Positions 32,600-62,711 of a stretch of 64,000 bases of DNA are shown here, in pieces (position 1 is the first letter of the stretch; each line of letters opens with the position of its first letter). The notes under the pieces were generated by a model. That model had not been told where the DNA came from and searched no databases. It worked only from the letters and a program-made list of their open reading frames with translations. The stretch is from contig NC_092351.1 in the NCBI RefSeq assembly GCF_963676685.1, positions 39,184,001 to 39,248,000 on the forward strand, given 5' to 3'. Both the position numbers and the translations under genes were made by a program. This DNA is from Mytilus edulis. Lineage: Eukaryota.

Positions 32600-33175
32600 C
32601 AACATCACTTACAAGAAAAAAATGACTGTTTATACAATATTCGCAAATTGGTTTTCTCTACACACTAAAACCTCAATCTGTCAACAAACACACAACCGTG
32701 TTTTAGTTTGAAATGGCGGCTGTTGTGTACATGCATTGCAAGTTCAGAGGTTAACACGCCAAATATGGCAAAAAGACTCCGCCCATATATTTATATTTTG
32801 TTTTTGTGAAATTTTGTTTAGATTTGCCAAAGCATAATTTTTAAAGATCATAAAAAAAATTATTGTTTGTTTCTTGAAAAATTACAATCAGATGCATATC
32901 ATTAAATTCAGTCAAGTGTTGCAGTCACAATGATCTCTATTTGTTTACAACCAATGTGATTTTCAAACGTAAGTCACATGTCAAAATCTCCTTTGACTTA
33001 TCAATTTACATAAACGTCACGCACCTGCTAAATCATTGATTGGTCAATAAATCCATTCAATCGACAAATCATCCAATCAACGTTCACGATTCGCCCCATA
33101 GCTTTGTCTATGTAGCCTGCATACTGTAGCGTGGGTTATCATTGCGGCATTTCCAGCTTGGGTATAGGTAAGTCT
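32600..33175. promoter_or_regulatory. Putative bidirectional SAP30/HMGB promoter with non-coding first exons (SAP30 donor ~32612, minus strand; HMGB exon 1 ending 33167)
   Basis: YY1 motif AAATGGCGGC at 32711, GC box CTCCGCCC at ~32778, CCAAT/ATTGG boxes at ~32951, ~33040 and ~33072, consensus donor AG|GTAAGT at 33167/33168, minus-strand donor (CACTTAC) at 32606-32612, and local CpG enrichment. Confidence 0.65.
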
Positions 33176-36100: not shown

Positions 36101-36739
36101 GCATAGAACTGATAAAATGTGTTTGTGCAATTTAAAGTATGAATCATTCAAAAATTACTTGATAAATATTCTCCATTTGATGGGTCGTGCCCAACTGGTT
36201 TTATTTTCACTGAGCAGTCACAGCTTTTATAAGATATGGTGCATATTAAATTCAACAATGTCTTGCACAAATGAATTAAACAACCAGGACAGTTACCTGA
36301 CTTTATATTCAAGGTTTCCAAAAGCAATATATTAACTGAATGGTGCACCATATAAACTTTTGTTTACTTTTTGATGCAAATAATAGATTTTTTTTGTTTA
36401 GCCCATTAGTTTTTTTCTTAAAAGGGAGACAGATGTACATTAAAACATCTACAGCATCTATGATTCATTCATTTTGATCATAAAAACTTCTTTAACATTA
36501 GAAAATAATAACTTTTCATTCAGTGTCTGATAATGATCTTGCAGTTATGGCTAACAAATTTGCTCCTTTTTCAAACAAAATGTCCAGTAGAAACTGAAAC
36601 TCAATGGTTAAGACCAGTACCAGCTAAAGTCTTGAGTGCTAAGTAATAGCCTACAATGTTTATATTCAAATGGTTTTTTTTCTTGTAAAGAGTTTAATCA
36701 TTTTATTTCAGAAATATTTCAATTTAATATTCAATCAAG

Positions 36740-38740: not shown

Positions 38741-40995
38741 ACACAGGAGATTCTGTATCATGAACAAATGGGGGGGGGGGGGTATCCTGGATCAAGAAAT
38801 GTACAATTTCTGTTTATGTATAGTTGATCATTTGTATATATTGTTCATCTTAGATAATTGTATATTTATCATTGTATATAAAAATCATTATTTTAATCAC
38901 CCCCTCCAAGGGGAAACAATCCTGTCAATTCATTTAACAAAAAAATTTAGAAGCTTTCATTATATTTAATTATTTATGCCTTCAGCGTTGAATTCAAAAA
39001 TTTATCTATGTACATTTAAAGTTTCATTTGTCTCAGACTTTCAAGCTAACAGCTACAATACATTTTTCACTATGAAAGTGCTAAATAATTTTCATCACCA
39101 TTATATTTTAATTATGAAATGTTAATGAATGTCATGTTTAAATAGATTTTATAATAAAACATGAGAAATGTTACTATTTTCTTCTTTGTAGCTCATCTGA
39201 CCCTTAAGTCCATCATGATCTTTTGTCATCACTTGGTGTTCAGCATAAATTTATAGGAGTTAAAATGCCCTAACAGATGTTATTTAGCTAAATTGAAAAA
39301 ATTAACAGCCTTATTTATGTACAAGATAGTGGAAGAGAAGCACTAATTTGTAGGCATCAACCCTCCTCTAACCCTAGACACATGTGAAACTGTACAACAT
39401 AAGAACAAACAATTAAAAATCAGTTGAAAAAGCTTTAACTTCTCAAATGAATACTAATAGAAATACATCTACCAAAAATATCGAGTGGACGTTAACAAGT
39501 ACAACATCTCGACAACAAAAAGACAGATCTGAGAGTATGTCCAGCTACTGAAAGCTAGTTTGAAGCCAATAATAACTAATATAAATAAATCATGCATCTA
39601 AGACTAAATTATCAAGCAGTACACAGCCAACTTCCAATGGATTATGTAAAACAATAAAAACAATATTCAAAGATCTAAGTACAGGGTTGAATTGGTAACC
39701 TTTTAGAATAGGTTTATTTTAAGGATAGATTCTTAATTCCTGGGCTCTGCAAAGTTTGTCACAGCAGTATAAATTCATTTCCACGCATTTGAGAAATCAC
39801 AATCAGAAAATTATAGAAATTTTAACCACAGGTTTAATTTGTATTATAGATTGTTATTTTTTGTTTTGAAGAATATCATGATTATTTCTACTGGTCATAA
39901 TTGCATTGTGCACCGTCTACTTTTGATGCAAATGATTCTTTTCTTTTTTTTTGCTCATTAGATATAAACAAATTTGTTATAAAAGGATAAGTCTCCATGC
40001 CAATCTAGAGTTCTATTTTTATTTAGAATTTGGATTGTTTTACCAATTAAAAAATTGACATTTTTATGCATTATTATTTTAATTTGTTAAGTCACTGTAA
40101 TTGATATGAGAGACTTCTCCATAATTCATACTGAAAATATGAATAATAATGTAACAAGAAAATGTTAAGATTGGAAATGATATGAGTAATAATAATTATC
40201 TTTTGTATTAATTAATGTCAATGCTATCACCTACAGCTAAAGGTTATGACATGTAATTTTAATTGGAGTATTGCTTCAAACTTGTCATATTAATTAAGTA
40301 TTGCCTATGTTTAGTATAAATATTGGTTGTAAACTTATTTCAAAATAGAACACACATATAGAGTAGGACAGTACTTCAAATAGAGACGAGAGAAAGAGAA
40401 AAACAAGTATATAAGTAGTAGGGAACTTTTACAATAAGAGTCATATTGTAATAATTGTATAGACTTTAACCATTGTTTGTAACTTTGGCTTGGAATTAAA
40501 AGATGCACATGAATAAGTTGGATATTTGTAAACTGCAAATAATTATTTTCTGTCTTTGGTGTCTTTTAAACTGAAATGATTTTTTAATGATTTAAAAAAT
40601 AAAATCATGACCCATAACATAAAGGTAGCCAACCAAGCACCATCAGCCTCATTGTTGTTTTTATTTTAGATTTTGGTATAAATACAGCATCTATGTGTCC
40701 TTAGTTTTGTCAGAAAAATATTTTATTAACTTTAGGAAATACTTCCATAAACAATCTTTGACAAAAACTGAATGTAGTCTTGTATGTCAGAAATGTAATG
40801 TCGTGTAAAAGTTGTGATCTTTTCTAAAAACAAAATATCCAGAGGAAATTGAAGATAATGATTCAAAATAGTGGGAGTGCTTACAATGATAAATTTGAGT
40901 ATTCAAATGTTTTACACTATTAGAATTGCCTTCTCTTGCATATATAAACAAATCATTTTATTTTCAGAAATATTTCAAATCAATATTAAATCAAG

Positions 40996-43900
40996 ATGGG
41001 AAGGAAAGATGGAAAGCCACGTGGACGTATGTCATCATATGCCTTCTTTGTGCAGTGTTTTAGAGAGGAACACAAGAAAAAAAATCCAACAGAAAAAGTT
41101 GTGTTTGCTGAATTCACGAAAAAGTGTGCTGAAAAATGGAGGGTACGGTTTTTGATTGCATTATTTTATGGGAATTTACTATAAGGTTTGCCTGTCCCTT
41201 GATTATATCTTCCCTTGGACCAAGGACAACTTTCTACTTAAGGAGTGTTTCCTTCTCTGGGTTTTCTTTAAAAACCTTGTCCAGGCGGTCCATATATTTT
41301 TTTTTGATATTTAGCATGCATGGTGCTGACATGAATCATAATGGTGCTTCCCATAATTCATTATTGAGTTTGAAGCATATTTTTATCTTGCCTCGAGGTC
41401 AATAGGCCTTACTTTTTTATATTTTCGTGTGGAACATTCCATTCTTTGACAGGCTTTTGATATTTGGCGCATGGATGCACCACCTCAAGACAATGTTTTG
41501 ATTTCCATAGAAGAATACCGGTACTATGTACTTGTTATCTTTATATGTCCATCTTAAAACCTAGCATATTCTTTTTTGACATGGCAAGACTTTTTTAATG
41601 CATCTAATTATTTCTCTGAGTCATGCTCTACTCATTCTATAATAAATTGTAAGATATATTGAAAAAATATGGTTTAGATCCTCGCCCTTAATCATATAAT
41701 TCTACCTAGTTGTCTGTTGCGCTGCGAAAGATATGGTAATGGTCTTATGTCTGTCCCAAGCACATCATTACTCAGAGACCGTTTGACAGAAAGCTCTCAT
41801 TCATGGTAGAATTGTTGGCCACCATATCCAGTTGACCATAATATACCAACATTTTGTGGGAGATATGGGTAGTAGGTCTCATTGGGGTCTAAGCCTGACG
41901 CGGTATTGACTGATTTTTTTGTAAGTGTGACTCGTGAAAGTCAAATTATTGTGCATGGAAATGAAGTCTGGCAGGACACCTGGAATTACAAGCAATATTA
42001 TTTCAATGATAAGCGGGATACAGGATCAGATTTTAGGCATTTATTTAAGCAAAAGAGATCAGCCAAAATTTTAAAAATGTACTACCAAGTAATCATGTAC
42101 AATTTACAACTGGGTAAACAATACCTTTAGAGATTTAACAGTCAGAGTCCACTACCTTTAGAGATTTAACAGTCAGAGTCCACTACCTTTAGAGATTTAA
42201 CAGTCAAGTCTACTACTAGTGGTGTCAATAAATCAAAATCAAAACATTCTGATTTCTAACTGTGAACTAGCTTGGACTTGCAATTTGATAGTAGTAATGA
42301 TTTTATTTGTTACAATAGATGAATATTTTTTTGTATGTAAGAATTCTGGTTTTGTTTTGTAGGAAATCAGTGCAAAGGAAAAGAGGAAATATGAAGATAT
42401 GGCAGAGAAAGACAAAGCTAGATATGAGGGAGAAATGCAAAATTACGAGCCAGGACCAGGGGAGAAGGTCGGAAGAAAGAAGAGAGATAAAGATCCCAAT
42501 GCACCAAAGAGATCCCTGTAAGATGAATGTATATGTAGTGTGGCAATATTGGCTAATTTCTGAATCATCTTCCGTTTAAATATTTGAATTACTTGTCCGG
42601 GTTAAAAATTGACAACAGGATAAAAGTGGGAGCCAGGGACTTAAAGGATTATTTGAAAATGCCTGTACCAAGTCAGGAATATGACAGTTCTTGTCCATTT
42701 GTTTTTGATGCGTTTTGTTATTTGAATTTGCCATGTGATTATGGACTTTCCAAATTGATTTTCCTCTAAGTTCAGTATTTTTGTGATTTTACTTTTTAGA
42801 TTCTTAATTTGTAATCATTAAAGTACATAAATAATTGTTGTGTAGTAAGTTTTTCTAGAGCAGCTAGAATTGTCAGTAATGTCTGATTTTTTTAGACACT
42901 TGTGTGACTAGGTGTCTAGGTCAAAAATGTTCTTCATATTTTGGCTTATTGCATTGAACATGGGTAAATCTATTGATTTTGTGGCTAAGCTGACACAAGA
43001 TGAAAAGAATTATTTTTCCTTAGCTTGATGTAAGATCAATCCAATGGCAGTAAATACATAAAATAACTATTTATTTTCTTACAGTTCTGCATTCTTTTTC
43101 TTCTGTAATGAAGAAAGACCAAAAGTAAGGAAAGATCATGGTGATTGGTCGGTAGCGCTAGTAGCCAAGGAGATGGGAAAACGATGGGAGAAACAAACAG
43201 ATAGATCAAAATATGAAAAACAGGCAGCTGCAGATAAAATCAGATATGAGCAGGTAGGTTCAGCGCCACACAACTTTAAACTATTTTTTAAAAGCCAGCT
43301 TGGTTACTTTCTGCTCTGCAATTTCTTTCAATACATTAATGAATTTTATGGCAGTGCATGCATTTCAATTTTCAATAAGGAGGGATATTCTGGAAAAAGT
43401 TATTTGTGAGGAGGGGATGGGTAGGAAATTTGGAGGGTATAACTTTTCTTGTAATCGCTATCCATACAACTTGTAAGAAATGTACTGTAAATTCTGAATG
43501 TTTTTATTGTCGTGAAAAATTTACAGAATAAGGTATTGCAAAAACAAATAACTCCTATTTTGAATTCTGAAAGCATCATTTCATTATGTAGAGCAGGATT
43601 TGCTTACCCTTGCAGAGCACCTGAAATCACCCCCTGTTTTTGGTGGGATTCTTGTTGCTCAGTCTTTAGTTTTCTATGTTAAGTTTTGTCTACTCTTATT
43701 TGTCTCTTTTTCTTTTTTAACCAAGGCGTTGTCAGTTTATTTTTCGACTTGTGAATTTGAAATCACCTTTGGTATCTTTCGCCTCTCTTTTATATACAAC
43801 ATTTACTGGAATTGCAATAATTAATATCATTTTTGACCTTTTTTCAAAAATTCCAATAATGAATACATGCAGGAAATTACAGTTAAGATTTGAAATTAAT

Positions 43901-44276
43901 GCTAACTCCTACTAGATGAATTTTCCATTTTTTGTATCTCTCTAAAAAAAAATGAACTTGTTACAACAGCAACATAGGAACAACCATTTAACATAATGAC
44001 ATTTTAATGATAAGGTAATTTCCATGTCTTGTGAAGGACTACATTCAGTGGTAAAATTTCTTCTGAATTCTTGTTACTCATCATTTTTCCATGTGGATAC
44101 TTTAATTGATCTGATTCTTCTCCCCACAGGCAATGGCAAAATACAGGGGAGGTGGTGGTGGATCTCCAGCAAAGAAACCTGCAGGACCCCCAGCAAAGAA
44201 AGCCAAGCCAGAGAGTGAAGAAGAGGATGATGATGATGAAGAAGATGAGGAAGACGACGAAGAAGATGATGAATAA
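40996..44276 (+). CDS. HMGB: HMGB copy 2 (205 aa, intact); exons 40996-41142, 42363-42517, 43085-43253, 44130-44276
   Basis: Same exon lengths (147/155/169/147), GT-AG sites, no stops; VQCFREE variant; AATAAA at 44711. Confidence 0.93.
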
Positions 44277-46392
44277 ACACAAAAGATTCTGTATCATGAA
44301 CAATTGGGGGGTATCCTGGATCAAGAAATGTACAATTTCTGTTATGTATAGTTGATCATTTGTATATATTGTTCATCTTAGATGATTGTATATTTATCAT
44401 TGTACATAAAATCATTATTTTATTCATCCCATCTGAGGGGAAACAATCCTGTCATCTTACTTTAGAACAAAATTTAAGTAGTTTTTATGATATTATAATT
44501 ATTTATACATTTTCATGATGAATTTAAAATTTAACTGTGTAAAACATTTTAAGTTTCATCAGCTTCACAGACTTGCAGGCTAACAGCTACAATATTTTCT
44601 TTTTGCTATGGAGCAATGTAAAGGGAATGACTGAAAGTGCTGTATTTTTCATCACCATTTTTGTTTTAATCATGAAATGTCAATGAATGTCATGTTTAAA
44701 TAGATTTTATAATAAAACATATTTTAACTTGCTTAATTCTTTTTTTTTAACCAAACCTGGCACCAAGGCAATTTTACTGAAAACGTTTATTAACTTTTAT
44801 TAGGAGTGATTGCCTATAAACGACTGTTTTAACAAACTATTGCCTATTGTCTTCAAAACTATAATAGGTAGAAGTTCTTAGTGGGGCCTTTATCAAACAA
44901 GAGACTTGCAAATTTGAATGAAGTGTGAATAATTTGTACCATTATGGAGAAATGTGGACTTGTCTCAGGAACTATGTTATTGAAATCCAGCTCAGCAGAT
45001 GTGGTATGATTGCCAATAAGACAACACTCCACAAGAGACCAACTGGCAGAAATTAACAGCAATAGGTCACTGTTAAGCCTTCAACAATAAAAAAAAAAAA
45101 AATCCATACTGCATAGTCAGCTTTTAAAGGCCCAGAAATCAAATGTAAAACAAACTAACAGCCTTATAAATGTACACAAAAAATGATGAAACAAGAAATA
45201 TGTAACACAGCAACAAATGACAACTACTGAATTACAGGCTCTTGACATGGGATAGGCACATACAAACAAAATGTGACTGGTGTAACAGTACATCATAATA
45301 GTCCTGCCAACTTAGCATAAATTTCACCCTAACCTTGAAGAAAATGATAAGGGAGATAACTCTGCAAAAAAGACAGAAATATCAGTGAAAATTAATACAA
45401 AATTATAATTTAACCCTTGAAGGGCCTTCTATTTAACAGAATGTATTGATTCTTGATATTTTAACCATCTTTAGAGAATAAAAAACAACTATAAAGGTGT
45501 TTTCATATTTTTAGCTCGCCTGGCCCAAAGGACCAAGTAAGCTTTTCCCATCACTTGCGTACGTCGTCGTTAACTTTTACAAAAATCTTCTCCTGAAACT
45601 ACTGGGCCAAAATCATCATTGGGGTGTCTAGTTTAAAAAATGTGTCCAGTGACCCAGCCAACAAACCAAGATGGCCACCAGGACTAAAAATAGAACAGAG
45701 ACATAGTGGTAAAATATACATTTTGGCTTATATCTCTGAAACCAAAGCAAATCTTACAAGGGGTTAAATTGTTTATCAGGTCAAGATCTATCTGCCCTGA
45801 AATTTTCAGATAGATTGGAGAACCCGTTGTAACATTGCTGCTCCTTAAATGCTAATTTCAAGGAAATTTTGCTGTTTTTATATGACCACAAACAACCACA
45901 AAATTGAAAATTTTTTGGTCATATATTGGTATCACATTGGCGTCGGCATCCCAAGACTTTTGGTTTTCGCATTATAACTTTAGTATAAGTGAATAGAAAT
46001 CTATGAAATTTAAACACAAGGTTTATGACCATAAAAGGAAGGTTGTGATTGATTTTGGAAGTTTTGGTCCCAACAGTTTGGGAATTAGGGGCCCAAATAA
46101 GGATTTTCTTGGTTATCGCACTATTACTTTAGTTTAAGTAAATAGAAATCTATGAAATTTTGACACAAGGTTTATGACCACTAAAGGAAGGTTGGGAGCG
46201 TTGGTCCCAACAGTTAAGGAATTAGGAGCCAAAAAAGGGCCATTAAAAGCATTATTCTTGGTTTTCGCACAATAACTTTAGTATTAGTAAATAGAAATCA
46301 ATGAAATTTAAACACAAGGTTTATGAACACAAAAGGAAGTTTGGGAGTTGAGGTCCCAACAGTTTAGGAATTAGGGGCACAAATAAGCATTT

Positions 46393-46770
46393 TTAACCGG
46401 ATTTTTGTGACAAAAATGTCGGTTATTGATTTGGGGATGGGCGGGCGGGCGGCAATCAAATGTTGTCCGTGCATTAACTCATGAACCGTTTAACCAAAGC
46501 TTTTAAAATTTTAATATGTTGTTACTGACAACTAAATGAAGGTCAAGTTCAATAATGGCGATTTGACTTTTACCGTTCAGGATTTATGGTTCTTGAAAGA
46601 TTGAAAAATGGTTTTTCCAGTCATGTCCGTGCATTTACGCATGAACTGTTCTACCAAAACTTCCCATATTTTAATATGTGGTTACTGATGACAAAATGGA
46701 GGTCAAGTTCAATAACGACGATTTTGACTTTTACCGTTCAGGAGTTATGGTTCTTGAAAGATTGAAAAAA
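46393..46770 (+). mobile_element. 3'-truncated copy of the 161-bp-unit HINE-like element at the duplication junction (also 53170-53720 and 59386-59762)
   Basis: Begins TTAACCGGATTTTTGTGACAAAAATGTCGG as at 14049 and breaks off at GAAAGATTGAAAAAA just before the HMGB acceptor. Confidence 0.85.
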
Positions 46771-46832
46771 GATTGCATATATAAACAAATCATTTTATTT
46801 TCAGAAATATTTCAAATCAATATTAAATCAAG

Positions 46833-49800
46833 ATGGGAAGGAAAGATGGAAAGCCACGTGGACGTATGTCATCATATGTCTTCTTTGTGCAGAGTTTCAG
46901 AGAGGAACACAAGAAAAAAAATCCAACAGAAAAAGTTGTGTTTGCTGAATTCTCGAAAAAGTGTGCTGAAAAATGGAGGGTACGGTTTTTGATTGCATTA
47001 TTTTATGGGAAATTTACTATAAGGTTTGCCTGTCTCTTGATTATATCTTCCCTTGGACCAAGGACAACTTTCTACTTAAGGAGTGTTTCCTTCTCTGGGT
47101 TTTCTTTAAAAACCTTGTCCAGGCGGTCCATATTTTTTTTTTTATATTTAGCATGCATGGTGCTTCCCATAATTCATTATTGACTTTGAAGCATATTTTT
47201 ATCTTGCCTCGATAGGCCTTACATTTTTACATTTTCGTGTGGAACATTCCATTCTTTGACAGGCTTTTGATATTTGGCGCATGGATGCACCACCTCAAGA
47301 CAATGTGTTGATTTCCATGGAAGAATACTATGTACTTGTTATCTTTATATGTCCATCTTAAAACCTCACATATTCTTATTTGACATGGCAAGACTTTTTT
47401 AATGCATCTAATTATTTCTCTCTAAGTCATGCCCTACTCATTCTATAATAAATTGTAAGATATATTGAAAAAATATGGTTTAGATCCTCGCCCTTAATCA
47501 TATAATTCTACCTAGTTGTCTGTTGCGCTGCGAAAGATATAGTAATGGTCTCATGTCTGTCCCAAGCACATCAATACTCGGGAGACCGTTTGACAGAAAG
47601 CTCTCATTCATGGTAGGATTGTTGGCCACCATGTCCAGTTGACCATAATATACCAACATTTTGTGGGAGATATGGGTAGTAGGTCTCATTGGGGTCTAAG
47701 CCTGACGCGGTATTGGCTGATTTTTTTGTAAGTGTGACTCGTGAAAGTCAAATTATTGTGCATGGAAATGGAAATGAAGTCGGGCAGGACACATGGAATT
47801 ACAAGCAATATTATTTCAATGATAAGCGGGATACAGGATCAGATTTTAGGCATTTATTTAAGCAAAAGAGATCAGCCAAAGTTTTAAAAATGTACTACCA
47901 AGTAATCATGTACAATTTACAACTGGGTAAACAATACCTTTAGAGATTTAACAGTCAGAGTCCACTACTAGTGGTTCAATAAATCAGAATCAAAACATTC
48001 TGATTTCAAACTGAACTTGCTTAGACTTGCAATTTGATAGAAGTAATGATTTCATTTGTTACAATAGATGAATATTATTTTGTTCGTAAGAATCCTGGTT
48101 TTGTTTTGTAGGAAATCAGTGCAAAGGAAAAAAAGAAATATGAAGATATGGCAGAGAAAGACAAAGCTAGATATGAGGGAGAAATGCAAAATTACGAGCC
48201 AGGACCAGGGGAGAAAGTTGGAAGAAAGAAGAGAGATAAAGATCCCAATGCACCAAAGAGATCCCTGTAAGATAAATGCATATGTAGTGTGGCAATATTG
48301 GCTAATTTCTGAATCATCTTCCGTTTAAATATATGAATTACTTGTCCGGGTAAAAAAATTTACAACAGGATAAAAGTGGGAGCCAGGGACTAAAAGGATT
48401 ATTAGATTCTTAATTTGTAATCATTTAAAGTACATAAATGATTGTTAAAGTAAGACATTTTCACAATTCAATGTGGGTATTGCAATATATTAATTTCATG
48501 TCATGCTTTGTTGTTCATTGTTGTTCATTTTGGTACTTATAAATATCAACATATAATTTCTCTTTAACCTCCTTTCCCTTAATACTGCATTATACTGGCA
48601 CAAATGAAGTCTTGTGGATTATAAGTTTTTCTAGAGCAGCTTGAATTGTCAGTAATGTCTGATTTTGTAGACACTTGTGTGACTAGGTGTCTAGGGCAAA
48701 AATGTTCTTCATATTTTGGCTTATTGCAATGAAGATCATTGAACATGGGTAAATCTATTGATTTTGTGGCTGAGCTGACACAAGATGAAAGGAATCCCAA
48801 GATAAATAATTTTTCTTTAGCTTGATGTAAGATCAATCCAATGGCAGTAAATACATAAAATAACTATTTATTTTCTTACAGTTCTTCATTCTTTTTCTTC
48901 TGTAACGAAGAAAGGCCAAAAGTAAGGAAAGATCATGGTGATTGGTCGGTAGCGCTAGTAGCCAAGGAGATGGGGAAACGATGGGAGAAACAAACAGATA
49001 GATCAAAATATGAAAAACAGGCAGCTGCAGATAAAATCAGATATGAGCAGGTAGGTTCAGCGCCATACAACTTTAAATTATTTTTTAAAAGCCAGCTTGG
49101 TTACTTTCTGCTCTGCAATTTCTTTCAATACATTAATGTATTTTATGGCAGTGCATGCATTTCAATCTTCAATAAGGAGGGCTATTCTGGAAAAAGTTAT
49201 TTGTGAGGAAGGGATGGGTAGGAAATTTTGAGGGTATAACTTTTCTTGTACTCGCTATCCATACAACTTGTAAGAAATGTACTGTAAATTCTGAATGTTT
49301 TTATTGTCGTGAAAAATTTACAGAATAAGGTATTGCAAAAACAAATAACTCCTATTTTAAATTCTGAAAGCATCATTTCATTATGTAGAGCAGGATTTGC
49401 TTACCCTTGCAGAGCACCTGAAATCACCCCCTGTTTTTGGTGGGATTCTTGTTGCTCAGTCTTTAGTTTTCTACGTTAAGTTTTGTCTACTCTTATTTGT
49501 CTCTCTTTCTTTTTTAACCAAGGCGTTGTCAGTTTATTTTTGGACTTATGAATTTGAATGTACCTTTGGTATCTTTCGCCTCTCTTTTATATACAGCATT
49601 TACTGGAATTGCAATAATTAATATCATTTTTGACCTTTTTTCAAAAATTCCAATAATGAATACATGCAGGAATTTACAGTTAAGATTTGAAATTTATGCT
49701 AACTCCTACTAGATGAATTTTCCATTTTTTGTATCTCTCTAAAAAAAAAAATGAACTGGTTACAACAGCAACATAGGAACAACCATTTAACATATAAATG

Positions 49801-50077
49801 ACATTTTAATGATAAGGTAATTTCCATGTCTTGTGAAGGACTACATTCAGTGGTAAAATTTCTTCTGAATTCTTGTTACTCATCTTTTTCCATGTGGATA
49901 CTTTAATTGATCTGATTCTTCTCCCCACAGGCAATGGCAAAATACAGGGGAGGTGGTGGTGGATCTCCAGCAAAGAAACCTGCAGGACCCCCAGCAAAGA
50001 AAGCCAAGCCAGAGAGTGAAGAAGAGGATGATGATGATGAAGAAGATGAGGAAGATGACGAAGAAGATGATGAATAA
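46833..50077 (+). CDS. HMGB: HMGB copy 3 (205 aa, intact); exons 46833-46979, 48112-48266, 48882-49050, 49931-50077
   Basis: Same exon lengths and open frame; [13 protein letters not shown] variant and A103S; AATAAA at 50512. Confidence 0.9.
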
Positions 50078-51580
50078 ATACAAAAGATTCTGTATCATGA
50101 ACAATTGGGGGGTATCCTGGATCAAGAAATGTACAATTTCTGTTATGTATAGTTGATCATTTGTATATATTGTTCATCTTAGATGATTGTATATTTATCA
50201 TTGTACATAAAATCATTATTTTATTCATCCCAACTGAGGGGAAACAATCCTGTCATCTTACTTTAGAACAAAATTTAAGTAGTTTTTATGATATTATAAT
50301 TATTTATACATTTTCATGATGAATTTAAAATTTAACTGTGTAAAACATTTTAAGTTTCATCAGCTTCACAGACTTGCAGGCTAACAGCTACAATATTTTC
50401 TTTTTGCTATGGAGCAATGTAAAGGGAATGACTGAAAGTGCTGTATTTTTCATCACCATTTTTGTTTTAATCATGAAATGTCAATGAATGTCATGTTTAA
50501 ATAGATTTTATAATAAAACATATTTTAACTTGCTTAATTCTTTTTTTTAACCAAACCTGGCACCAAGGCAATTTTACTGAAAACTTTTATTAACTTTTAT
50601 TAGGAGTGATTGCCTATAAACGACTGTTTTGACAAACTATTGCCTATTGTCTTCAAAACTATAATAGGTAGAAGTTCTTAGTGGGTTTGATAAGGCCTTT
50701 ATCAAACAAGAGACTTGCAAATTTGAATGAAGTGTGAAAAATTTGTACCATTATGGAGAAATGTGGACTTGTCACAGGAACTATGTTATTGAAATCCAGC
50801 TCAGCAGATGTGGTATGATTGCCAATAAGACAACACTCCACAAGAGACCAACTGGCAGAAATTAACAGCAATAGGTCACTTAAGCCTTCAACAATAAAAA
50901 AAAAATTCATACTGCATAGTCGGCTTTAAAAGGCCCAGAAATCAAATGTAAAACAAACTAACGGCCTTATAAATGTACACAAAAAATGATGAAACAAAAA
51001 ATATGTAACACAGCAACAAGTGACAACTACTGAATTACAGGCTCTTGACATGGGATAGGCACATACATACATAATGTGACTGGTGTAACAGTACATCATA
51101 ATAGTCCAGCTAACTTAGCATAAATTTCACCCTAACCTTGAAGAAAATGATAAGGGAGATAACTCTGCAAAAAAGACAGAAATATCAGTGAAAATTGATA
51201 CAAAATCATAATTTAACCCTTGAAGTACCTTCCATTTAACAGAATGTATTGATTCTTGATATTTTAGCCATCTTTAGAGAATAAAAAACAACTATAAAGG
51301 TGTTTTCATATTTTTAGCTTGCCTGGCTAAGTGAGCTTTTCCCATCACTTGCGTCCGTCGTCGTTAACTTTTACAAAAATCTTCTCCTGAAACTACTGGG
51401 CCAAATTAAACCAACCTTGGCCAAAATCGTCATTGGGATGTCTAGTTTAAAAAATGTGTCCAATGACCCGGCCAACAAACCAAGATGGCCACCAGGACTA
51501 AAAAAAGAACAGAGACGTAGTGGTAAAATATACATTTTGGCTTATATCTCTGAAACCAAAGCAAATCTTACAAGGGGTTA

Positions 51581-52534: not shown

Positions 52535-53782
52535 TAAATTGTTTATCAGGTCAAGATCTATCTGCCCTGAAATTTTCAGATAGATTAAAGAACACGTTGT
52601 AACGTTGCTGCCCCTTAAATGCTAATTTCAAGGAAATTTTGCTGTTTTTATATGACCACAAAAAACCACAAAATTGAAAATTTTTTGGTCATATATTGGT
52701 ATCACATTGGCGTCGGCGTCCCAAGACTTGGTTTTCGCATTATAACTTTAGTATAAGTGAATAGAAATCTATGAAATTTAAACACAAGGGTTATGGCCAT
52801 AAAAGGAAGGTTGTGATTGATTTTGGAAGTTTTGGTCCCAACAGTTTGGGAATTAGGGGCCAAAAAGGGCCCAAATAAGGATTTTCTTGGTTTTCGCACT
52901 TACTTTCGTTTAAAGTAAATAGAAGTCTATGAAATTTTGACACAAGGTTTATGACCACTAAAGGAAGGTTGGGAGTGTTGGTCCCAACAGTTTAGGAATT
53001 AGGAGCCAAAAAAGGGCCATAATAAGCATTATTCTTGGTTTTCGCACAATAACTTTAGTATAAGTAAATAGAAATCAATGAAATTTAAACACAAGGTTTA
53101 TGAACACAAAAGGAAGTTTGGGAGTTGAGGTCCCAACAGTTTAGGAATTAGGGGCACAAATAAGCATTTTTAACCGGATTTTTGAGACAAAAATGTCGGT
53201 TATTGATTTGGGGATGTACGGCGGGCAGTCGGGCGGGCGGCAATCGAATGTTGTCTGTGCATTAACTCATGAACCGTTCAACCAAAGCTTTTAAAATTTT
53301 AATATGTTGTTACTGACAACTAAATGAAGGTCAAGTTCAATAATGGCGATTTTGACTTTTACCGTTCAGGAGTTAAGGTTCTTGAAAGATTGAAAAATGT
53401 TTTTTCCAGTCGTGTCCGTGCATTGACGCATGAACTGTTCTACCAAAGTTTCCCAAATTTTAATATGTTGGTACTGATGACAAAATGGAGGTCAAGTTCA
53501 ATAATGACGATTTTTACTTTTACCGTTCAGGAGTTAAGGTTCTTGAAAGATTGAAAAATGGTTTTTCCAGTCGTGTCCGTGCATTGACGCATGAACTGTT
53601 CTACCAAAGTTTCCCAAATTTTAATATGTTGGTACTGATGACAAAATGGAGGTCAAGTTCAATAATGACGATTTTTACTTTTACCGTTCAGGAGTTATGG
53701 TTCTTGAAAGAATGAAAAAAGTTTGTATATATAAACAAATCATTTTATTTTCAGAAATATTTCAAATCAATATTAAATCAAG

Positions 53783-56700
53783 ATGGGAAGGAAAGATGGA
53801 AAGCCACGTGGACGTATGTCATCATATGTCTTCTTTGTGCAGTGTTTTAGAGAGGAACACAAGAAAAAAAATCCAACAGAAAAAGTTGTGTTTGCTGAAT
53901 TCTCGAAAAAGTGTGCTGAAAAATGGAGGGTACGGTTTTTGATTGCATTATTTTATGGGAAATTTACTATAAGGTTTGCCTGTCCCTTGATTTATCTTCC
54001 CTTGGACCAAGGACAAATTTCTACTTAAGGAGTGTTTCCTTCTCTGGGTTTTCTTTAAAAACCTTGTCCAGGAGGTCCATAATTTTTTTTTTTATATATT
54101 TAGCATGCATGGTGCTGACATAAATCATAATGGTGCTTCCCATAATTCATTATTGACTTTGAAGCATATTTTTATCTTGCCTCGAGGTCAATAGGCCTTA
54201 CATTTTTACATTTTCGTGTGGAACATTCCATTCTTTGACGGGCTTTTGATATTTGGCGCATGGATGCACCACCTCAAGACAATGTGTTGATTTCCATGGA
54301 AGAATACTATGTACTTGTTATCTTTATATGTCCATCTTAAAACCTCACATATTCTTATTTGACATGGCAAGACTTTTTTAATGCATCTAATTATTTATCT
54401 AAGTCGTGCCCTACTCATTCTATAATAAATTGTAAGATATATTGAAAAAATATGGTTTAGATCCTCGCCCTTAATCATATAATTCTACCTAGTTGTCTGT
54501 TGCGCTGCGAAAGATATAGTAATGGTCTTATGTCTGTCCCAAGCACATCATTACTCAGAGACCGTTTGACAGAAAGCTCTCATTCATGGTAGGATTGTTG
54601 GCCACCATGTCCAGTTGACCATAATATACCAACATTTTGTGGGAGATATGGGTAGTAGGTCTCATTGGGGTCTAAGCCTGACGCGGTATTGGCTGATTTT
54701 TTTGTAAGTGTGACTCGTGAAAGTCAAATTATTGTGCATGGAAATGGAAATGAAGTCGGGCAGGAAACATGGAATTACAAGCAATATTATTTCAATAATC
54801 AAAACATTCTGATTTCAAACTGTGAACTTGCTTAGACTTGCAATTTGTTAGAAGTAATGATTTCATTTGTTACAATAGATGAATAATATTTTGTTCGTAA
54901 GACTCCTGGTTTTGTTTTGTAGGAAATCAGTGCAAAGGAAAAGAGGAAATATGAAGATATGGCAGAGAAAGACAAAGCTAGATATGAGGGAGAAATGCAA
55001 AATTACGAGCCAGGACCAGGAGAGAAGGTTGGAAGAAAGAAGAGAGATAAAGATCCCAATGCACCAAAGAGATCCCTGTAAGATAAATGCATATGTAGTG
55101 TGGCAATATTGGCTAATTTCTGAAGCATCTTCCGTCTAAATATTTGAATTACTTGTCCGGGTTAAGAATTGACAACAGGATAAAAGTGGGAGCCAGGGAC
55201 TTAAAGGATTATTAGATTGTTAATTTGTAATCATTAAAGTACATAAATGATTGTTAAAGTAAGACATTTTCACAATTCAATGTGGGTATTGCAATATATT
55301 AATTTCATGTCATGCTTTGTTGTTCATTGTTGTTTATTTTGGTACATATCAATATCAACATATAATTTCTCTTTAACCTCCTTTCCCTTAATACTGCATT
55401 ATACTGGCACAAATCAAGTCTTGTGGATTATAAGTTTTTCTAGAGCAGCTTGAATTGTCAGTAATGTCTGATTTTGTAGACACTTGTGTGACTAGGTGTC
55501 TAGGGCAAAAACGTTCTTTATATTTTAGCTTATTGCATTGAACATGGGTAAATCTATTGATTTTGTGGCTGAGCTGACATAAGGCCAAAAAAAATTACAT
55601 ATCTCTGTTTCCTGCTGCCAAGGCAAATAAATCAGGGTCGGAAGGTCGGGTTTTTTTTTTTTTATTATTTTTTTATTTTTGCACTCCCTGTCAGATTTGC
55701 AGTCGGTTAAATGTCATGTTTGGTTAGGGTCCTGTACCCTAAAATGATCTAATCTCTTAAAAGAAGCTTAAATTGAATAATCCTCCCAGTGCCGACATTT
55801 TTTAAACCTTAATTGTAGCACATTTGTGCTGGGAGCAGCCATTTTGATTGTTTGGGTATAGTAAAATACGGATCGGGATCAGACAGGAAACGAATTTTTC
55901 CGGACCAGAAACAAATTTTTTCCGGATTTGAATAAAAAGATCTAGGGTCGGGGTAGGTCGGGAAACAGGAAACAGACATATATTTTTTTTTGGCCTAAGA
56001 TGAAAAGAATCCCAAGGTAAATTATTTTTCTTTAGCTTGATGTAAGATCAATCCAATGGCAGTAAATACATAAAAATAACTATTTATTTTCTTACAGTTC
56101 TGCATTCTTTTTCTTCTGTAATGAAGAAAGACCAAAAGTAAGGAAAGATCATGGTGATTGGTCGGTAGCGCTAGTAGCCAAGGAGATGGGAAAACGATGG
56201 GAGAAACAAACAGATAGATCAAAATATGAAAAACAGGCAGCTGCAGATAAAATCAGATATGAGCAGGTAGGTTCAGCACCATACAACTTTAAACTATTTT
56301 TTAAAAGCCAGCTTGGTTACTTTCTGCTCTGCAATTTCTTTCAATACATTAATGAATTTTATGGCAGTGCATGCATTTCAATCTTCAATAAGGAGGGCTA
56401 TTCTGGAAAAAGTTATTAGTGAGGAAGGAATGGGTAGGAAATTTGGAGGGTATAATTTTTTCTTGTACTCGCTATCCATACAACTTGTAAGAAATGTACT
56501 GTAAATTCTGAATGTTTTTATTGTCGTGAAAAATTTACAGAATAAGGTATTGCAAAAACAAATAACTCCTATTTTAAATTCTGAAAGCATCATTTCATTA
56601 TGTAGAGCAGGATTTGCTTACCCTTGCAGAGCACCTGAAATCACCCCCTGTTTTTGGTGGGATTCTTGTTGCTCAGTCTTTAGTTTTCTATGTTATGTTT

Positions 56701-57290
56701 TGTCTACTCTTATTTGTCTCTTTTTCTTTTTTAACCAAGGCGTTGTCAGTTTATTTTTCGACTTGTGAATTTGAATGTACCTTTGGTATCTTTCGCCTCT
56801 CTTTTATATACAGCATTTACTGGAATTGCAATAATTAATATCATTTTTGACCTTTTTTCAAAAATTCCAATAATGAATACATGCAGGAATTTACAGTTAA
56901 GATTTGAAATTTATGCCAACTCCTACTAGATGAATTTTCCATTTTTTGTATCTCTCTAAAAAAAAATGAACTTGTTACAACAGCAACATAGAAACAACCA
57001 TTTAACATAATGACATTTTAATGATAAGGTAATTTCCATGTCTTGTGAAGGACTACATTCAGTGGTAAAATTTCTTCTGAATTCTTGTTACTCCTCATTT
57101 TTCCATGTGGATACTTAAATTGATCTGATTCTTCTACCCACAGGCAATGGCAAAATACAGGGGAGGTGGTGGTGGATCTCCAGCAAAGAAACCTGCAGGA
57201 CCCCCAGCAAAGAAAGCTAAGCCAGAGAGTGAAGAAGAGGATGATGATGATGAAGAAGATGAGGAAGACGACGAAGAAGATGATGAATAA
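53783..57290 (+). CDS. HMGB: HMGB copy 4 (205 aa, intact); exons 53783-53929, 54923-55077, 56098-56266, 57144-57290
   Basis: Same exon lengths and open frame; [13 protein letters not shown]; AATAAA at 57725. Confidence 0.9.
55583..55995. mobile_element. 413-bp PIF/Harbinger-like MITE in an intron of HMGB copy 4
   Basis: TAA|GGCCAAAAAAAA...TTTTTTTTGGCC|TAA. The empty site GACATAAGATG is present in copy 5 (~61820). Confidence 0.9.
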
Positions 57291-59824
57291 GCACAAAAGA
57301 TTCTGTATCATGAACAATTGGGGGGTATCCTGGATCAAGAAATGTACAATTTCTGTTATGTATAGTTGATCATTTGTATATATTGTTCATCTTAGATGAT
57401 TGTATATTTATCATTGTACATAAAATCATTATTTTATTCATCCCATCTGAGGGGAAACAATCCTGTCATCTTACTTTAGAACAAAATTTAAGTAGTTTTT
57501 ATGATATTATAATTATTTATACATTTTCATGATGAATTTAAAATTTAACTGTGTAAAACATTTTAAGTTTCATCAGCTTCACAGACTTGCAGGCTAACAG
57601 CTACAATATTTTCTTTTTGCTATGGAGCAATGTAAAGGGAATGACTGAAAGTGCTGTATTTTTCATCACCATTTTTGTTTTAATCATGAAATGTCAATGA
57701 ATGTCATGTTTAAATAGATTTTATAATAAAACATATTTTAACTTGCTTAATTCTTTTTTTTAACCAAACCTGGCACCAAGGCAATTTTACTGAAAACGCT
57801 TATTAACTTTTATTAGGAGTGATTGCCTATAAACGACTGTTTTAACAAACTATTGCCTATTGTCTTCAAAACTATAATAGGTAGAAGTTCTTAGTGGGTT
57901 TGATAAGGCCTTTATCAAACAAGAGACTTGCAAATTTGAATGAAGTGTGAATAATTTGTACCATTATGGAGAAATGTGGACTTGTCACAGGAACTATGTT
58001 ATTGAAATCCAGCTCAGCAGATGTGGTATGATTGCCAATAAGACAAAACTCCACAAGAGACCAACTGGCAGAAATTAACAGCAATAGGTCACTATTTAGC
58101 CTTCAACAATAAGAAAAGTCTATACTTCATAGTTGGCTTTAAAAGGCCCAGAAATCAAATGTAAAACAAACTAACGGCCTTATAAATGTACACAAAAAAA
58201 TGATGAAACAAGAAATATGTAACACAGCAACAAATGACAACTACTGAATTACAGGCTCTTGACATGGGATAGGCACATACAAACAGAATGTGACTGGTGT
58301 AACAGTACATCATAATAGTCTAGCCAACTTAGCATAAATTTCACCCTAACCTTGAAGAAAATGATAAGGGAGATAACTCTGCAAAAAAGACAGAAATATC
58401 AGTGAAAATTGATACAAAATTATAATTTAAACCTTGAAGGGCCTTCCATTTAACAGAATGTATTGATTCTTGATATTTTAGCCATCTTTAGAGAATAAAA
58501 AACAACTATAAAGGTGTTATCATATTTTTAGCTCGCCTGGCTAAGTGAGCTTTTCCCATCACTTGTGTCCGTCGTCGTTAACTTTTACAAAAATCTTCTC
58601 CTGAAACTACTGGGCCAAATTAAACCAAACTTGGCCAAAATCATCATTGGGGTGTCTAGTTTAAAAAATGTGTCCAGTGACCCGGCCAACAATCCAAGAT
58701 GGCCACCAGGACTAAAAATAGAACAGACACATAGTGGTAAAATATACATTTTGGCTTCTCTGAAACCAAAGCAAATCTTACAAGGGGTTAAATTGTTTAT
58801 CAGGTCAAGATCTATCAGCCCTGAAATTTTCAGATAGATTGGAGAACCCATTGTAACGTTGCTGCCCCTTAAATGCTTATATGACCACAAAAAACCACAA
58901 AATTGAAAAAATTTTGGTCATATATTGGTATCACATTGGCGTCGGCGTCCCAAGACTTTTGGTTTTCGCATTATAACTTTAGTATAAGTGAATAGAAATC
59001 TATGAAATTTAAACACAAGGTTTATGACCATAAAAGGAAGGTTGTGATTGATTTTGGAAGTTATGGTCCCAACAGTTTGGGAATTAGGGGCCAAAAAGGG
59101 CCCAAATAAGGATTTTCTTGGTTTTCGCACTTACTTTAGTTTAAGTAAATAGAAATCTATGAAATTTTGACACAAGGTTTATGACCACTAAAGGAAGGTT
59201 GGGAGTGTTGGTCCCAACAGTTTAGGAATTAGGAACCAAAAAAGGGCCATAATAAGCATTATTCTTGGTTTTCGCACAATAACTTTAGTATAAGTAAAAT
59301 AGAAATCAATGAAATTTAAACACAAAAGGAAGTTTGGGAGTTGAGGTCCCAACAGTTTAGGAATTGGGGGCACAAATAAGCATTTTTAACCGGATTTTTG
59401 TGACAAAAATGTCGGTTATTGATTTGGGGATGGGCGGCGGATTCAATCAAATGATGTCTGTACATAAACTCATGAACCGTTCAACCAAAGCTTTTAAAAT
59501 TTTAATATGTTGTTACTGACAACTAAATGAAGGTCAAGTTCAATAATGGCGATTTTGACTTTTACCGTTCAGGAGTTATGGTTCTTGAAAGATTGAAAAA
59601 TAGTTTTTCCAGTCGTGTCCGTGCATTTATGCATGAACTGTTCTACCAAAGCTTCCCAAATTTTAATATGTTGTTACTGATGACAAAATGGAGGTCAAGT
59701 TTAATAATGACGATTTTGACTTTTACCGTTCAGGAGTTATGGTTCTTGAAAGATTGAAAAAAGATTGCATATATAAACAAATTATTTTATTTTCAGAAAT
59801 ATTTCAAATCAATATTAAATCAAG

Positions 59825-62711
59825 ATGGGAAGGAAAGATGGAAAGCCACGTGGACGTATGTCATCATATGTCTTCTTTGTGCAGTGTTTTAGAGAGGAAC
59901 ACAAGAAAAAAAATCCAACAGAAAAAGTTGTGTTTGCTGAATTCTCGAAAAAGTGTGCTGAAAAATGGAGGGTACGGTTTTTGATTGCATTATTTTATGG
60001 GAAATTTACTATAAGGTTTGCCTGTGCCTTGATTATATCTTCTCTTGGACCAAGGACAACTTTCTACTTAAGGAGTGTTTCCTTCTCTGGGTTTTCTTTA
60101 AAAACCTTGTCCAGGCGGTCCATATTTTTTTTTTATATTTAGCATGCATGGTGCTGACATAAATCATAATGGTGCTTCCCATAATTCATTATTGACTTTG
60201 AAGCATATTTTTATCTTGCCTCGAGGTCAATAGGCCTTACTTTTTTACATTTTTGTGTGGAACATTCCATTCTTTGACAGGCTTTTGATATATGGTGCAT
60301 GGATGCACCACCTCAAGAAAAAGTGTTGATTTCCATAGAAGAATACCGGTACTATGTACTTGTTATCTTTATATGTCCATCTTAAAACCTCACATATTCT
60401 TATTTGACATGGCAAGACTTTTTTAATGCATCTAATTATTTCTCTAAGTCGTGTCCTACTCATTCTATAATAAATTGTAAGATATATTGAAAAAATATGG
60501 TTTAGATCCTCGCCCTTAATCATATAATTCTACCTAGTTGTCTGTTGCGCTGCGAAAGATATAGTAATGGTCTTATGTCTGTCCTAAGCACATCATTACT
60601 CAGAGACCGTTTGACAGAAAGCTCTCATTCATGGTAGGATTGTTGGCCACCATGTCCAGTTGACCATAATATACCAACATTTTGTGGGAGATATGGGTAG
60701 TAGGTCTCATTGGGGTCTAAGCCTGACGCGGTATTGGCTGATTTTTTTGTAAGTGTGACTCGTGAAAGTCAAATTATTGTGCATGGAAATGGAAATGAAG
60801 TCGGACAGGAAACATGGAATTACAAGCAATATTATTTCAATGATAAGCGGGATACAGGATCAGATTTTAGGCATTTATTTAAGCAAAAGAGATCAGCCAA
60901 AGTTTTAAAAATGTACTACCAAGTAATCATGTACAATTTACAACTGGGTAAACAATACCTTTAGAGATTTAAAAGTCAGAGTTCACTACCTTTAGAGATT
61001 TAACAGTCAGAGTCCACTACTAGTGGTTCAATAAATCAGAATCAAAACATTCTGATTTCAAACTGTGAACTTGCTTAGACTTGCAATTTGATAGAAGTAA
61101 TGATTTTATTTGTTACAATAGATGAATATTATTTTGTATGTAAGAATTCTGGTTTTGTTTTGTAGGAAATCAGTGCAAAGGAAAAGAGGAAATATGAAGA
61201 TATGGCAGAGAAAGACAAAGCTAGATATGAGGGAAAAATGCAAAATTACGAGCCAGGACCAGGGGAGAAGGTTGGCAGAAAGAAGAGAGATAAAGATCCC
61301 AATGCACCAAAGAGATCCCTGTAAGATAAATGCATATGTAGTGTGGCAATATTGGCTAATTTCTGAATCATCTTCTGTCTAAATATTTGAATTACTTGTC
61401 CGGGTTAAAAATTGACAACAGGATAAAAGTGGGAGCCAGGGACTAAAAGGATTTTTAGATTCTTAATTTGTAATCATTTAAAGTACATAAATGATTGTTA
61501 AAGTAAGACATTTTCACAATTCAATGTGGGTATTGTAATATATTAATTTCATGTCATGCTTTGTTGTTCATTGTTGTTTATTTTGGTACATATAAATATC
61601 AACATATAATTTCTCTTTAACCTCCTTTCCCTTAATACTGCATTATACTTGCACAAATGAATTCTTGTGGATTATAAGTTTTTCTAGAGCAGCTTGAATT
61701 GTCAGTAATGTCTGATTTTGTAGACACTTGTGTGACTAGGTGTCTAGGTCAAAAATGTTCTTCATATTTTGGCTTATTGCATTGAACATGGGTAAATCTA
61801 TTGATTTTGTGGCTGAGCTGACATAAGATGAATCAATCCCAAGAAAAATAATTTTTCTTTAGCTTGATGTAAGATCAATCCAATGGCAGTAAATACATAA
61901 AATAACTATTTATTTTCTTACAGTTCTGCATTCTTTTTCTTCTGTAACGAAGAAAGACCAAAAGTAAGGAAAGATCATGGTGATTGGTCGGTAGCGCTAG
62001 TAGCCAAGGAGATGGGAAAACGATGGGAGAAACAAACAGATAGATCAAAATATGAAAAACAGGCAGCTGCAGATAAAATCAGATACGAGCAGGTAGGTTC
62101 AGCGCCACACAACTTTAGACTATTTTTTAAAAGCCACCTTGGTTACTTTCTGCTCTGCAATTTCTTTCAATACATTAATGAATTTTATGGCAGTGCAGTG
62201 AATTTGAATGTACCTATGGTATCTTTCGCCTCTCTTTTATATACAGCATTTACTGGAAATGCAATAATTAATATCATTTTTGACCTTTTTTCAAAAATTC
62301 CAATAATGATCAATAATGAATACATGCAGGAATTTACAGTTAAGATTTGAAATTTATGCTAACTCCTACTAGATGAATTTTCCATTTTTTGTATCTCTCC
62401 TAAAAAATGAACTCGTTACAACAGCAACATAGGAACAACTATTTAACATAATGACATTTTAATGATAAGGTCATTTCCATGTCTTGTGAAGGACTACATT
62501 TAGTGGTAAATTTCTTCTGAATTCCATGTGGATACTTTAATTGATCTGATTTTTCTCCCCACAGGCAATGGCAAAATACAGGGGAGGTGGTGGTGGATCT
62601 CCAGCAAAGAAACCTGCAGGACCCCCAGCAAAGAAAGCCAAGCCAGAGAGTGAAGAAGAGGATGATGATGATGAAGAAGAGGAGGAAGACGACGAAGAAG
62701 ATGATGAATAA
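59825..62711 (+). CDS. HMGB: HMGB copy 5 (205 aa, intact); exons 59825-59971, 61166-61320, 61924-62092, 62565-62711
   Basis: Same exon lengths and open frame; E73K; AATAAA at 63145. Confidence 0.9.

What the first reader, a model, noticed from the sequence alone, without database searches (positions are those of the whole stretch)
46393..46832. Duplication breakpoint spares just 32 nt of intron 1 and fuses it to a truncated transposon
Seen: in copies 3, 4 and 5 the HINE-like element stops mid-repeat and is joined to TTGCATATATAAACAAATCATTTTATTTTCAG (46773-46804), roughly a minimal 3' splice site. This defines the 5837-bp unit (40936-46772). The TE-derived ATG ORFs (MEVKFNND...) run across the junction out of frame with HMGB, so an unspliced TE-initiated mRNA would carry inhibitory overlapping uORFs. 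Inference: a TE-associated rearrangement seeded the array, and retention of the acceptor fits the shared-leader model.
Basis: partly seen in the sequence, partly recalled or inferred. Interest (0 to 1): 0.7.

Follow-up and report, generated by a model that had tools for sequence, protein, structure and literature searches.

The report
Mussel HMGB copies share one leader
In this mussel, five full copies of the HMGB coding region lie behind a single first exon that is spliced past copy 1 to the copy-2-type block; three further copies begin at a scar where a broken mobile element meets the last 32 bases of an intron, and they likely borrow the same first exon at a low level.

Summary
The junction is real. 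In copies 3-5 of a five-copy Mytilus HMGB array, a young HINE element (family of at least 1,354 copies; 20 of 20 sampled are complete) stops in mid-repeat and joins the last 32 nt of the intron before exon 2. The junction occurs only three times in the genome, so it was made once and then multiplied. It did not seed the array: the copy 1/copy 2 pair is older, lacks the element and is annotated in M. californianus and M. coruscus. The junction is most likely a repair-type join made at or soon after insertion, which probably trimmed an existing spacer. The uORF argument is empty: copy 2 has the same uORFs without the element, and 893 of 2,000 random pieces give one. The shared leader is shown for the copy-2 type: 703 RNA reads splice the single-copy exon 1 across all of copy 1. 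For copies 3-5 it is inferred only (21 sense reads, not linked to exon 1). This is a variant of 3' tandem-cassette genes in which the whole coding region is the cassette.

The parts
33100..33167 (+). Single non-coding exon 1 (shared leader); most read ends at 33126 and 33138; donor GTAAGT follows
   Evidence: joint of 703 reads; ends 65 and 141 molecules; 1 match in genome
36712..38740 (+). HMGB coding cassette 1 (exons 2-5, 205 aa, keeps all three HMGB1-type cysteines); AATAAA at 39153
40936..40967 (+). Parent of the 32-nt intron remnant, acceptor of copy 2
40968..44276 (+). HMGB coding cassette 2 (205 aa, A16/T41 type), the main expressed form; AATAAA at 44711
45346..46392 (.). Spacer of nested repeat fragments (elements called A and B here), related to the flank behind copy 5 but 9-14% different and carrying deletions shared by all three spacers
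46393..46769 (+). 5' fragment of a HINE, precise 5' end in a T run, broken inside a 161-bp monomer
46722..46741 (+). Acceptor-like pyrimidine run plus CAG inside the HINE monomer, 63 nt upstream of exon 2; predicted decoy 3' splice site (use not tested)
   Evidence: sequence only
46770..46772 (+). Three junction letters that, with their neighbours, repeat an 8-mer lying 11 nt upstream in the HINE
46773..46804 (+). 32-nt intron remnant with the acceptor of copy 3
46696..46992 (+). Out-of-frame ORF across the junction (unspliced reading); not specific to the TE
46805..50077 (+). HMGB coding cassette 3 (intact, V16/S41 type)
53170..53754 (+). Second copy of HINE fragment, junction (53723) and remnant
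53755..57290 (+). HMGB coding cassette 4 (intact, V16/S41 type)
59386..59796 (+). Third copy of HINE fragment, junction (59765) and remnant
59797..62711 (+). HMGB coding cassette 5 (intact, V16/S41 type); close likeness to the other units ends near 63826
14049..15127 (+). Full-length member of the same HINE family (reference for the comparison, not part of the array)

Best explanation
The junction is a single join between a young HINE and the last 32 nt of an HMGB intron, likely made by repair-type joining at or soon after the element's insertion and likely copied into three units by unequal crossing over; exon 1 is spliced to the copy-2-type block, and copies 3-5 likely depend on the same exon 1. 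Step 1 (shown by annotation in other species, inferred for order): an old duplication of exons 2-5 gave cassettes 1 and 2 behind one promoter. Step 2 (inferred): cassette 2 was duplicated again; its spacer and the terminal flank drifted 9-14% apart. Step 3 (inferred): a HINE entered the spacer with a precise 5' end, never kept its 3' end, and was joined to the intron 32 nt before the acceptor, removing what lay between. Step 4 (inferred): unequal crossing over made three junction-bearing units. Step 5 (shown for the copy-2 type, inferred for 3-5): transcription reads through upstream poly(A) signals and exon 1 picks one cassette; distal cassettes are used rarely.
For: One junction position in three copies and nowhere else. 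Family copies are normally complete, 20 of 20. No HINE of this family at the partner site upstream of copy 2, so recombination between two like elements is excluded; an 8-mer repeat and 3 shared letters at the join fit end-joining or template switching. The three spacer HINEs share only 1 change from the family consensus against 12 partial or private ones, so insertion, join and first multiplication were close in time. The host DNA of the spacer has by contrast several shared deletions and 8.7-14% difference from the terminal flank, against 1.6-4.0% among spacers, with a step near 45300 (0-3 private changes per 100-nt bin before, 5-12 after). Exon 1 is single-copy; 703 reads from 74 starts join 33167 to 40968 with GT..AG; depth is 0 in all four runs at 40065-40555. 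21 of 21 reads laid on copy-3 exon 2 are sense-strand and carry copy-4/5-like letters at 46893 and 46898. All five ORFs are intact with GT-AG introns. V16/S41-type proteins are annotated in M. galloprovincialis, M. trossulus and further M. edulis records.
Against: No joint from exon 1 to 46805 (nor to copy 1 at 36712) is among the 15 joint rows shown; 103 rows were hidden. The 21 reads are not phased with exon 1, come from 6 starts in one run of another individual, possibly another species, and their letters at the two type-defining sites were not displayed. Reads of copy 4/5 type with one mismatch would have been laid on copy 2, so the 703 cannot be split by copy. Intron 2 of copy 2 differs from copies 3-5 by only 3.1-3.8%, which needs gene conversion if the duplication is as old as the flank suggests. 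Element B sits at a different place in spacer and terminal flank and may be an independent insertion, so its 13-14% is not a safe clock. M. edulis annotation lists the copy 3-5 proteins without isoform labels, that is apparently as separate genes. The junction was not examined in other individuals.
Confidence: 0.5

Rival explanations
1. The join is the primary breakpoint: an aborted HINE insertion behind copy 2 switched template to the intron 5.8 kb upstream and so created copy 3. The terminal flank was later exchanged for a diverged haplotype.
For: No HINE behind copy 5; HINE age (1.4-4.6% from consensus) is similar to copy 2 versus copies 3-5 intron distance, 3.1-3.8%; DNAREP1/DINE-1 elements lie at duplication breakpoints in Drosophila (PMC2211543, passages).
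Against: Needs a 9-10% diverged haplotype in orthologous element A and several deletions fixed on the donor haplotype. Even if true it explains copies 3-5 only, not the array's origin.
Confidence: 0.35
2. Copies 3-5 are practically silent passengers (promoter-less duplicates kept intact by conversion); the 32 nt are an accident.
For: Copy-2-type letters dominate in exon 2 of the contigs of two runs (0 other letters, table 8); a transcript must pass two to four AATAAA signals; decoy acceptor 63 nt upstream; no docking-selector pairing above shuffles.
Against: 21 sense reads of this type; 3 of 3 ORFs intact despite indels in their introns; V16/S41 type kept in three species.
Confidence: 0.3
3. 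The HINE fragment or spacer acts as a promoter for copies 3-5, with or without a splice from a donor in the spacer.
For: Fragment is in sense orientation; separate gene-like annotation of these proteins.
Against: 15-16 ATGs in the 380 nt before the remnant; no exon-1 homologue. RNA depth over the spacer comes from the repeat families at large and cannot be assigned.
Confidence: 0.12
4. Exon 1 reaches the downstream cassettes by trans-splicing, as in mod(mdg4), lola or CG42235, not by read-through.
For: Short reads cannot tell cis from trans; such genes are listed as trans-spliced in PMC3228551 (passages).
Against: All cassettes are downstream and on the same strand; no sign of separate promoters; an M. 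californianus model mixes copy-1 exons 2-3 with copy-2 exons 4-5 (P0066), which fits one long pre-mRNA (annotation only).
Confidence: 0.07
5. Copies 3-5 are an assembly artefact (haplotypes joined in tandem).
For: Copies are 91-97% alike over long blocks; junction not checked in independent DNA.
Against: A novel junction with private mutations in each copy, copy-specific insertions and deletions, and both protein types in other species' annotations.
Confidence: 0.04

Closest known systems
3' tandem cassette clusters (Drosophila PGRP-LC, CG42235; PMC6191721, passages read)
   Same: Common 5' exon, tandem multi-exon 3' cassettes made by duplication, each with its own poly(A) signal, one chosen per mRNA; repeated re-duplication of a cassette.
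   Different: Here the shared part is non-coding, so each cassette is a complete protein. The distal copy-2 type outweighs the proximal copy 1 (401 against 65 reads at the exon 2-3 joint), against the proximity rule reported for PGRP-LC. No docking-selector pairing found.
HINE / DINE-1-like non-autonomous Helentrons of bivalves (Cg_HINE, Pearl, MgE; PMC7492417 and PMC4067079, passages)
   Same: subTIRs, 5' inverted repeat, microsatellite, about 160-bp central repeats, 3' hairpin, T-rich target.
   Different: The array copies lack the 3' module. Identity with a named family such as MgE was not tested.
DNAREP1-associated duplicate genes in Drosophila (PMC2211543, passages)
   Same: A HINE-type element at the edge of a duplicated gene segment.
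   Different: Those were dispersed duplicates, 5 of 10 with the repeat at both parent and copy; here the duplicate is tandem, the element is on one side only, and the copy has no promoter of its own.
HMGB1/2 family (PDB 9cg9_K, E 6e-57)
   Same: Two HMG boxes and an acidic tail; copy 1 keeps the residues aligned to C23, C45 and C106.
   Different: Copy-2-type proteins have F at the C23-equivalent position.

Membership tests
HINE (non-autonomous Helentron) | 5' subTIR with a nearby complementary IR | tested here: met
   5' end folds into a hairpin, -8.2 kcal/mol; no shuffle control run
HINE (non-autonomous Helentron) | 3' subTIR and 3' palindrome | tested here: met
   Present at 15030-15127 and in 20 of 20 sampled family copies; absent from the three array fragments
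HINE (non-autonomous Helentron) | Microsatellite and central tandem repeats | tested here: met
   GGCG-type microsatellite and 5.8 x 161 bp at 14123-15060
HINE (non-autonomous Helentron) | Insertion in T-rich site | tested here: met
   5' flanks of 20 of 20 loci end in TTT or TTA before the TT of the pattern; empty sites not compared
HINE (non-autonomous Helentron) | Autonomous Rep/Helicase partner with the same ends | not tested
   No search made
3' tandem cassette cluster | One 5' exon spliced to a distal cassette, skipping a proximal one | tested here: met
   703 reads 33167 to 40968
3' tandem cassette cluster | The same exon spliced to copy 1 and to copies 3-5 | tested here: inconclusive
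   Not among 15 joint rows shown, 103 hidden; copy 1 exons are spliced and expressed and no other exon 1 exists
3' tandem cassette cluster | Own poly(A) signal per cassette | tested here: met
   AATAAA at the same place behind 5 of 5 cassettes; cleavage sites not mapped
3' tandem cassette cluster | Competing docking-selector RNA pairing (PGRP-LC subtype) | tested here: not met
   Best duplexes for 4 of 4 target regions fall within the range of 12 shuffles each; single species, no covariation test
TE-mediated non-allelic homologous recombination | Homologous element at both parental breakpoints | tested here: not met
   No family match upstream of 40936 or behind copy 5
End-joining / template-switch junction | Microhomology or short templated insertion at the join | tested here: inconclusive
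   8-mer repeated 11 nt apart across the join and 3 shared letters; an alternative parse as a later 10-nt deletion in the intron fits too; no significance test
Inhibitory uORF created by a TE | uORF depends on the TE and lies in a real transcript | tested here: not met
   Same frame open with host ATGs upstream of copy 2; 893 of 2,000 random pieces give it; no such transcript shown

The most novel reading that the evidence does not exclude
All five complete HMGB coding regions are alternative outputs of one promoter and one non-coding exon, the array grows by promoter-free cassettes whose edge was cut by an aborted Helentron insertion, and the choice of cassette switches the mussel between an HMGB with the C23/C45-type redox pair (copy 1) and forms without it (copies 2-5).
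Probability: 0.3. Interest if true: 0.7.

Novelty: new variant of a known kind. Interest (0 to 1): 0.45.

Why it matters
A TE scar at a duplication edge is ordinary. What matters is the context that the reads confirm: whole genes can be duplicated without a promoter and still be expressed by competing for one leader exon, so total output stays tied to one promoter while the protein diverges. The young copies 3-5, with only 32 nt of native intron in front of the acceptor, are a natural minigene for asking what a distal cassette needs in order to be chosen. The two old cassette types differ at the position aligned to HMGB1 C23, whose disulfide with C45 governs cytokine activity in mammals (PMC8185929 and PMC3428943, listing and start of abstract only), so splice choice may set redox behaviour of a mussel alarmin; this is inference. 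Gene counts and RNA-seq quantification at this locus are easily wrong.

Tried and rejected
Full HINE behind the last copy, as a simple head-to-tail duplication predicts: absent in 28 kb. Second promoter or exon-1 copy: 1 match only. Docking-selector pairing: not above shuffles. uORFs as evidence: rejected. Joint from copy-1 exon 4 to copy-2 exon 5 (99 reads): probably a mapping effect, since reads on copy-1 exon 5 carry copy-2-like letters in 10 of 10 and 50 reads on copy-2 exon 5 lack 3 letters as copy 1 does; the protein P0075 shows such an allele. T at 42470 in 865 of 874 reads looks like copies 3-5 but sits in contigs with a copy-2 exon 2, so it is allelic, not copy-diagnostic. The apparent 15-18% difference in copy-2 intron 3 comes from unrelated inserts, not age. 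RNA depth over the spacer was not used: it comes from the repeat families. Literature: searches (20 papers, 15 listed; 0 papers) gave nothing on this locus by title or start of abstract; (122 papers, 15 listed) gave no case of a whole coding region under a shared non-coding exon; the library lacks most subscription journals and no supplements were read. Earlier scan notes did not bear on this.

Full report
Setting. The window lies at G000:C8:39184001-39248000 of a 1.37-Gb genome. It holds five copies of HMGB exons 2-5, with exon 2 starting at 36712, 40968, 46805, 53755 and 59797; a DNA search finds these five and no more (best candidates only). All five splice to intact 205-aa proteins, each identical to a protein annotated for Mytilus edulis. 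Those annotations may derive from the same DNA and are not independent support.

The observation. Copies 3, 4 and 5 agree with copy 2 from 40936 on and differ from it upstream, where each has a repeat fragment. The fragment matches the element at 14049-15127 at 92-93% and stops at the same point of a 161-bp monomer; three further letters precede the 32 nt. The junction pattern has 3 matches in the genome. Unit lengths from the junctions are 5837, 6950 and 6042 bp. The out-of-frame ORF from 46696 is there.

The element. The copy at 14049-15127 has a 5' hairpin, a GGCG-type microsatellite, 5.8 monomers of 161 bp, a 3' inverted copy of the 5' end and a 3' hairpin, the features given for HINEs in PMC7492417 and PMC4067079 (passages). 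Its first 36 letters occur 1,354 times exactly. All 20 loci taken, the first 20 listed on C1 and so not a random sample, have their 3' end. The truncation is therefore a rearrangement and not the family's habit.

How the join arose. No family member lies upstream of 40936 or in 28 kb behind copy 5, which excludes recombination between two like elements. An 8-mer repeated 11 nt apart across the join, ending in three letters shared with the intron, fits end-joining or a template switch; a later 10-nt deletion in the intron is an alternative parse. A break within 32 nt of the acceptor has a chance of about 1.8% if placed evenly in the 1.8 kb between copy 1's end and the acceptor; this is a figure after the fact, and selection would keep the acceptor but not demand closeness.

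When. Against the consensus of 21 family copies, the three spacer fragments share 1 change and have 12 partial or private ones in gap-free columns: the element was new when the spacers began to part. The host spacer is older. It shares the insertion site of element A with the flank behind copy 5, yet differs from it by 8.7-10.5% there (3.3-4.0% among spacers) and carries deletions of 37 and 131 bp and others common to all three spacers. The change is abrupt near 45300, as expected where the last unit is a crossover product. I read this as an older duplication whose spacer was trimmed by an insertion-linked deletion (0.5); a primary breakpoint with a later haplotype exchange stays possible (0.35). 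Against my reading, intron 2 of copy 2 is only 3.1-3.8% from copies 3-5, which needs conversion; conversion is suggested by residues shared between both types within M. trossulus.

The array is older than the junction. Copy-1 and copy-2 types are both annotated in M. californianus (as isoforms X1, X2, X3) and M. coruscus; the V16/S41 type of copies 3-5 appears in M. edulis, M. galloprovincialis and M. trossulus records and in none of the 3 M. californianus or 2 M. coruscus proteins listed. Introns of copies 1 and 2 give no match at E 1e-10. So the TE did not seed the array.

The shared leader. Exon 1 and its upstream region occur once. In raw reads of run X24 (about 6 in 100 of the run read), 703 reads from 74 starts join 33167 to 40968, skipping 7,800 nt with GT..AG ends and the whole of copy 1; molecule ends pile up at 33126 and 33138; depth at 40065-40555 is 0 in all four runs. 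The three contig-based runs did not show this joint. At the exon 2-3 joint the copy-2 type has 401 reads and copy 1 has 65. Joints from exon 1 to copy 1 or copy 3 are not among the 15 rows shown, and 103 rows were hidden. Twenty-one reads from 6 starts were laid on copy-3 exon 2, all sense-strand and all with the copy-2/4/5 letters at 46893 and 46898; to be placed there they should carry V16 or S41 letters, which I infer and did not see. Contigs of runs X16 and X19 match copy-2 exon 2 with no other letter, so that type dominates there. Use of the acceptors of copies 3-5 remains untested.

The uORF argument. One frame is open through the 32 nt and all of exon 2, so any upstream ATG in that frame overlaps the start. 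Copy 2 has two such ATGs without a TE, copy 1 has one, and 893 of 2,000 random 380-nt pieces supply one. It carries no weight. Of more use, each HINE monomer has an acceptor-like site, the last 63 nt before exon 2; its use would include the ATG at 46747. This is a prediction from sequence.

Control of cassette choice. No pairing between the first 830 nt of intron 1 and the regions before the acceptors beat 12 shuffles, and the inverted-repeat list shows nothing convincing. Each cassette has AATAAA at the same place. Competition between 3' splice sites and poly(A) sites is the default mechanism, as described for 3' tandem cassettes in PMC6191721 (passages); trans-splicing is not excluded (PMC3228551, passages).

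Protein. Copy 1 aligns to HMGB1 (E 6e-57) with the cysteines matching C23, C45 and C106. Copy-2-type proteins have F at the first of these in all species listed. Copies 2-5 differ from each other by 2-5 residues.

Verdict. The junction alone is ordinary (compare PMC2211543, passages). The locus is a variant of known 3' cassette genes in which the entire coding region is the cassette. Searches found no paper on it, within the limits given above; public annotation already treats two of the types as isoforms in one species. Interest 0.45.

Noticed in passing
window 51580-52535: About 950-bp element with long terminal inverted repeats inserted in the spacer behind copy 3 only.
   Followed up: no
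window 37899 to 44130: 99 reads join copy-1 exon 4 to copy-2 exon 5; probably an allele of copy-1 exon 5 laid on the wrong copy.
   Followed up: partly
P0066 (M. californianus isoform X3): Annotated protein with copy-1 exons 2-3 and copy-2 exons 4-5, which would be splicing across cassettes.
   Followed up: no
window 36803-36805 and the matching codon in copies 2-5: The cysteine aligned to HMGB1 C23 is F in all copy-2-type proteins; residue 21 is C, S or T.
   Followed up: partly
window 55583-55996; 42656-42846; copy 5 intron 4: Copy-specific indels: about 410 bp extra in copy-4 intron 3, an unrelated repeat in copy-2 intron 3, and a deletion of about 400 bp in copy-5 intron 4.
   Followed up: no
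window 4364-4729: Perfect two-copy tandem repeat of 181 bp; very recent duplication or assembly artefact.
   Followed up: no
window 31484-31703: Reverse-strand fragment holding only the 3' part of the same HINE family, 1.4 kb upstream of exon 1.
   Followed up: no
window 34787-34818 and 35447-35478: 32-nt inverted repeat, 94% complementary, 628 nt apart in intron 1; may be the ends of a small element.
   Followed up: no
window 33191-34172: Low sense-strand RNA depth (1.7-5.4) in the first kilobase of intron 1 in run X24; nascent RNA or a minor alternative exon.
   Followed up: no
L001, window-equivalent about 64600-66140: Full-length element of another repeat family (B) nested in element A behind copy 5; only its 5' part survives in the spacers.
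   Followed up: partly
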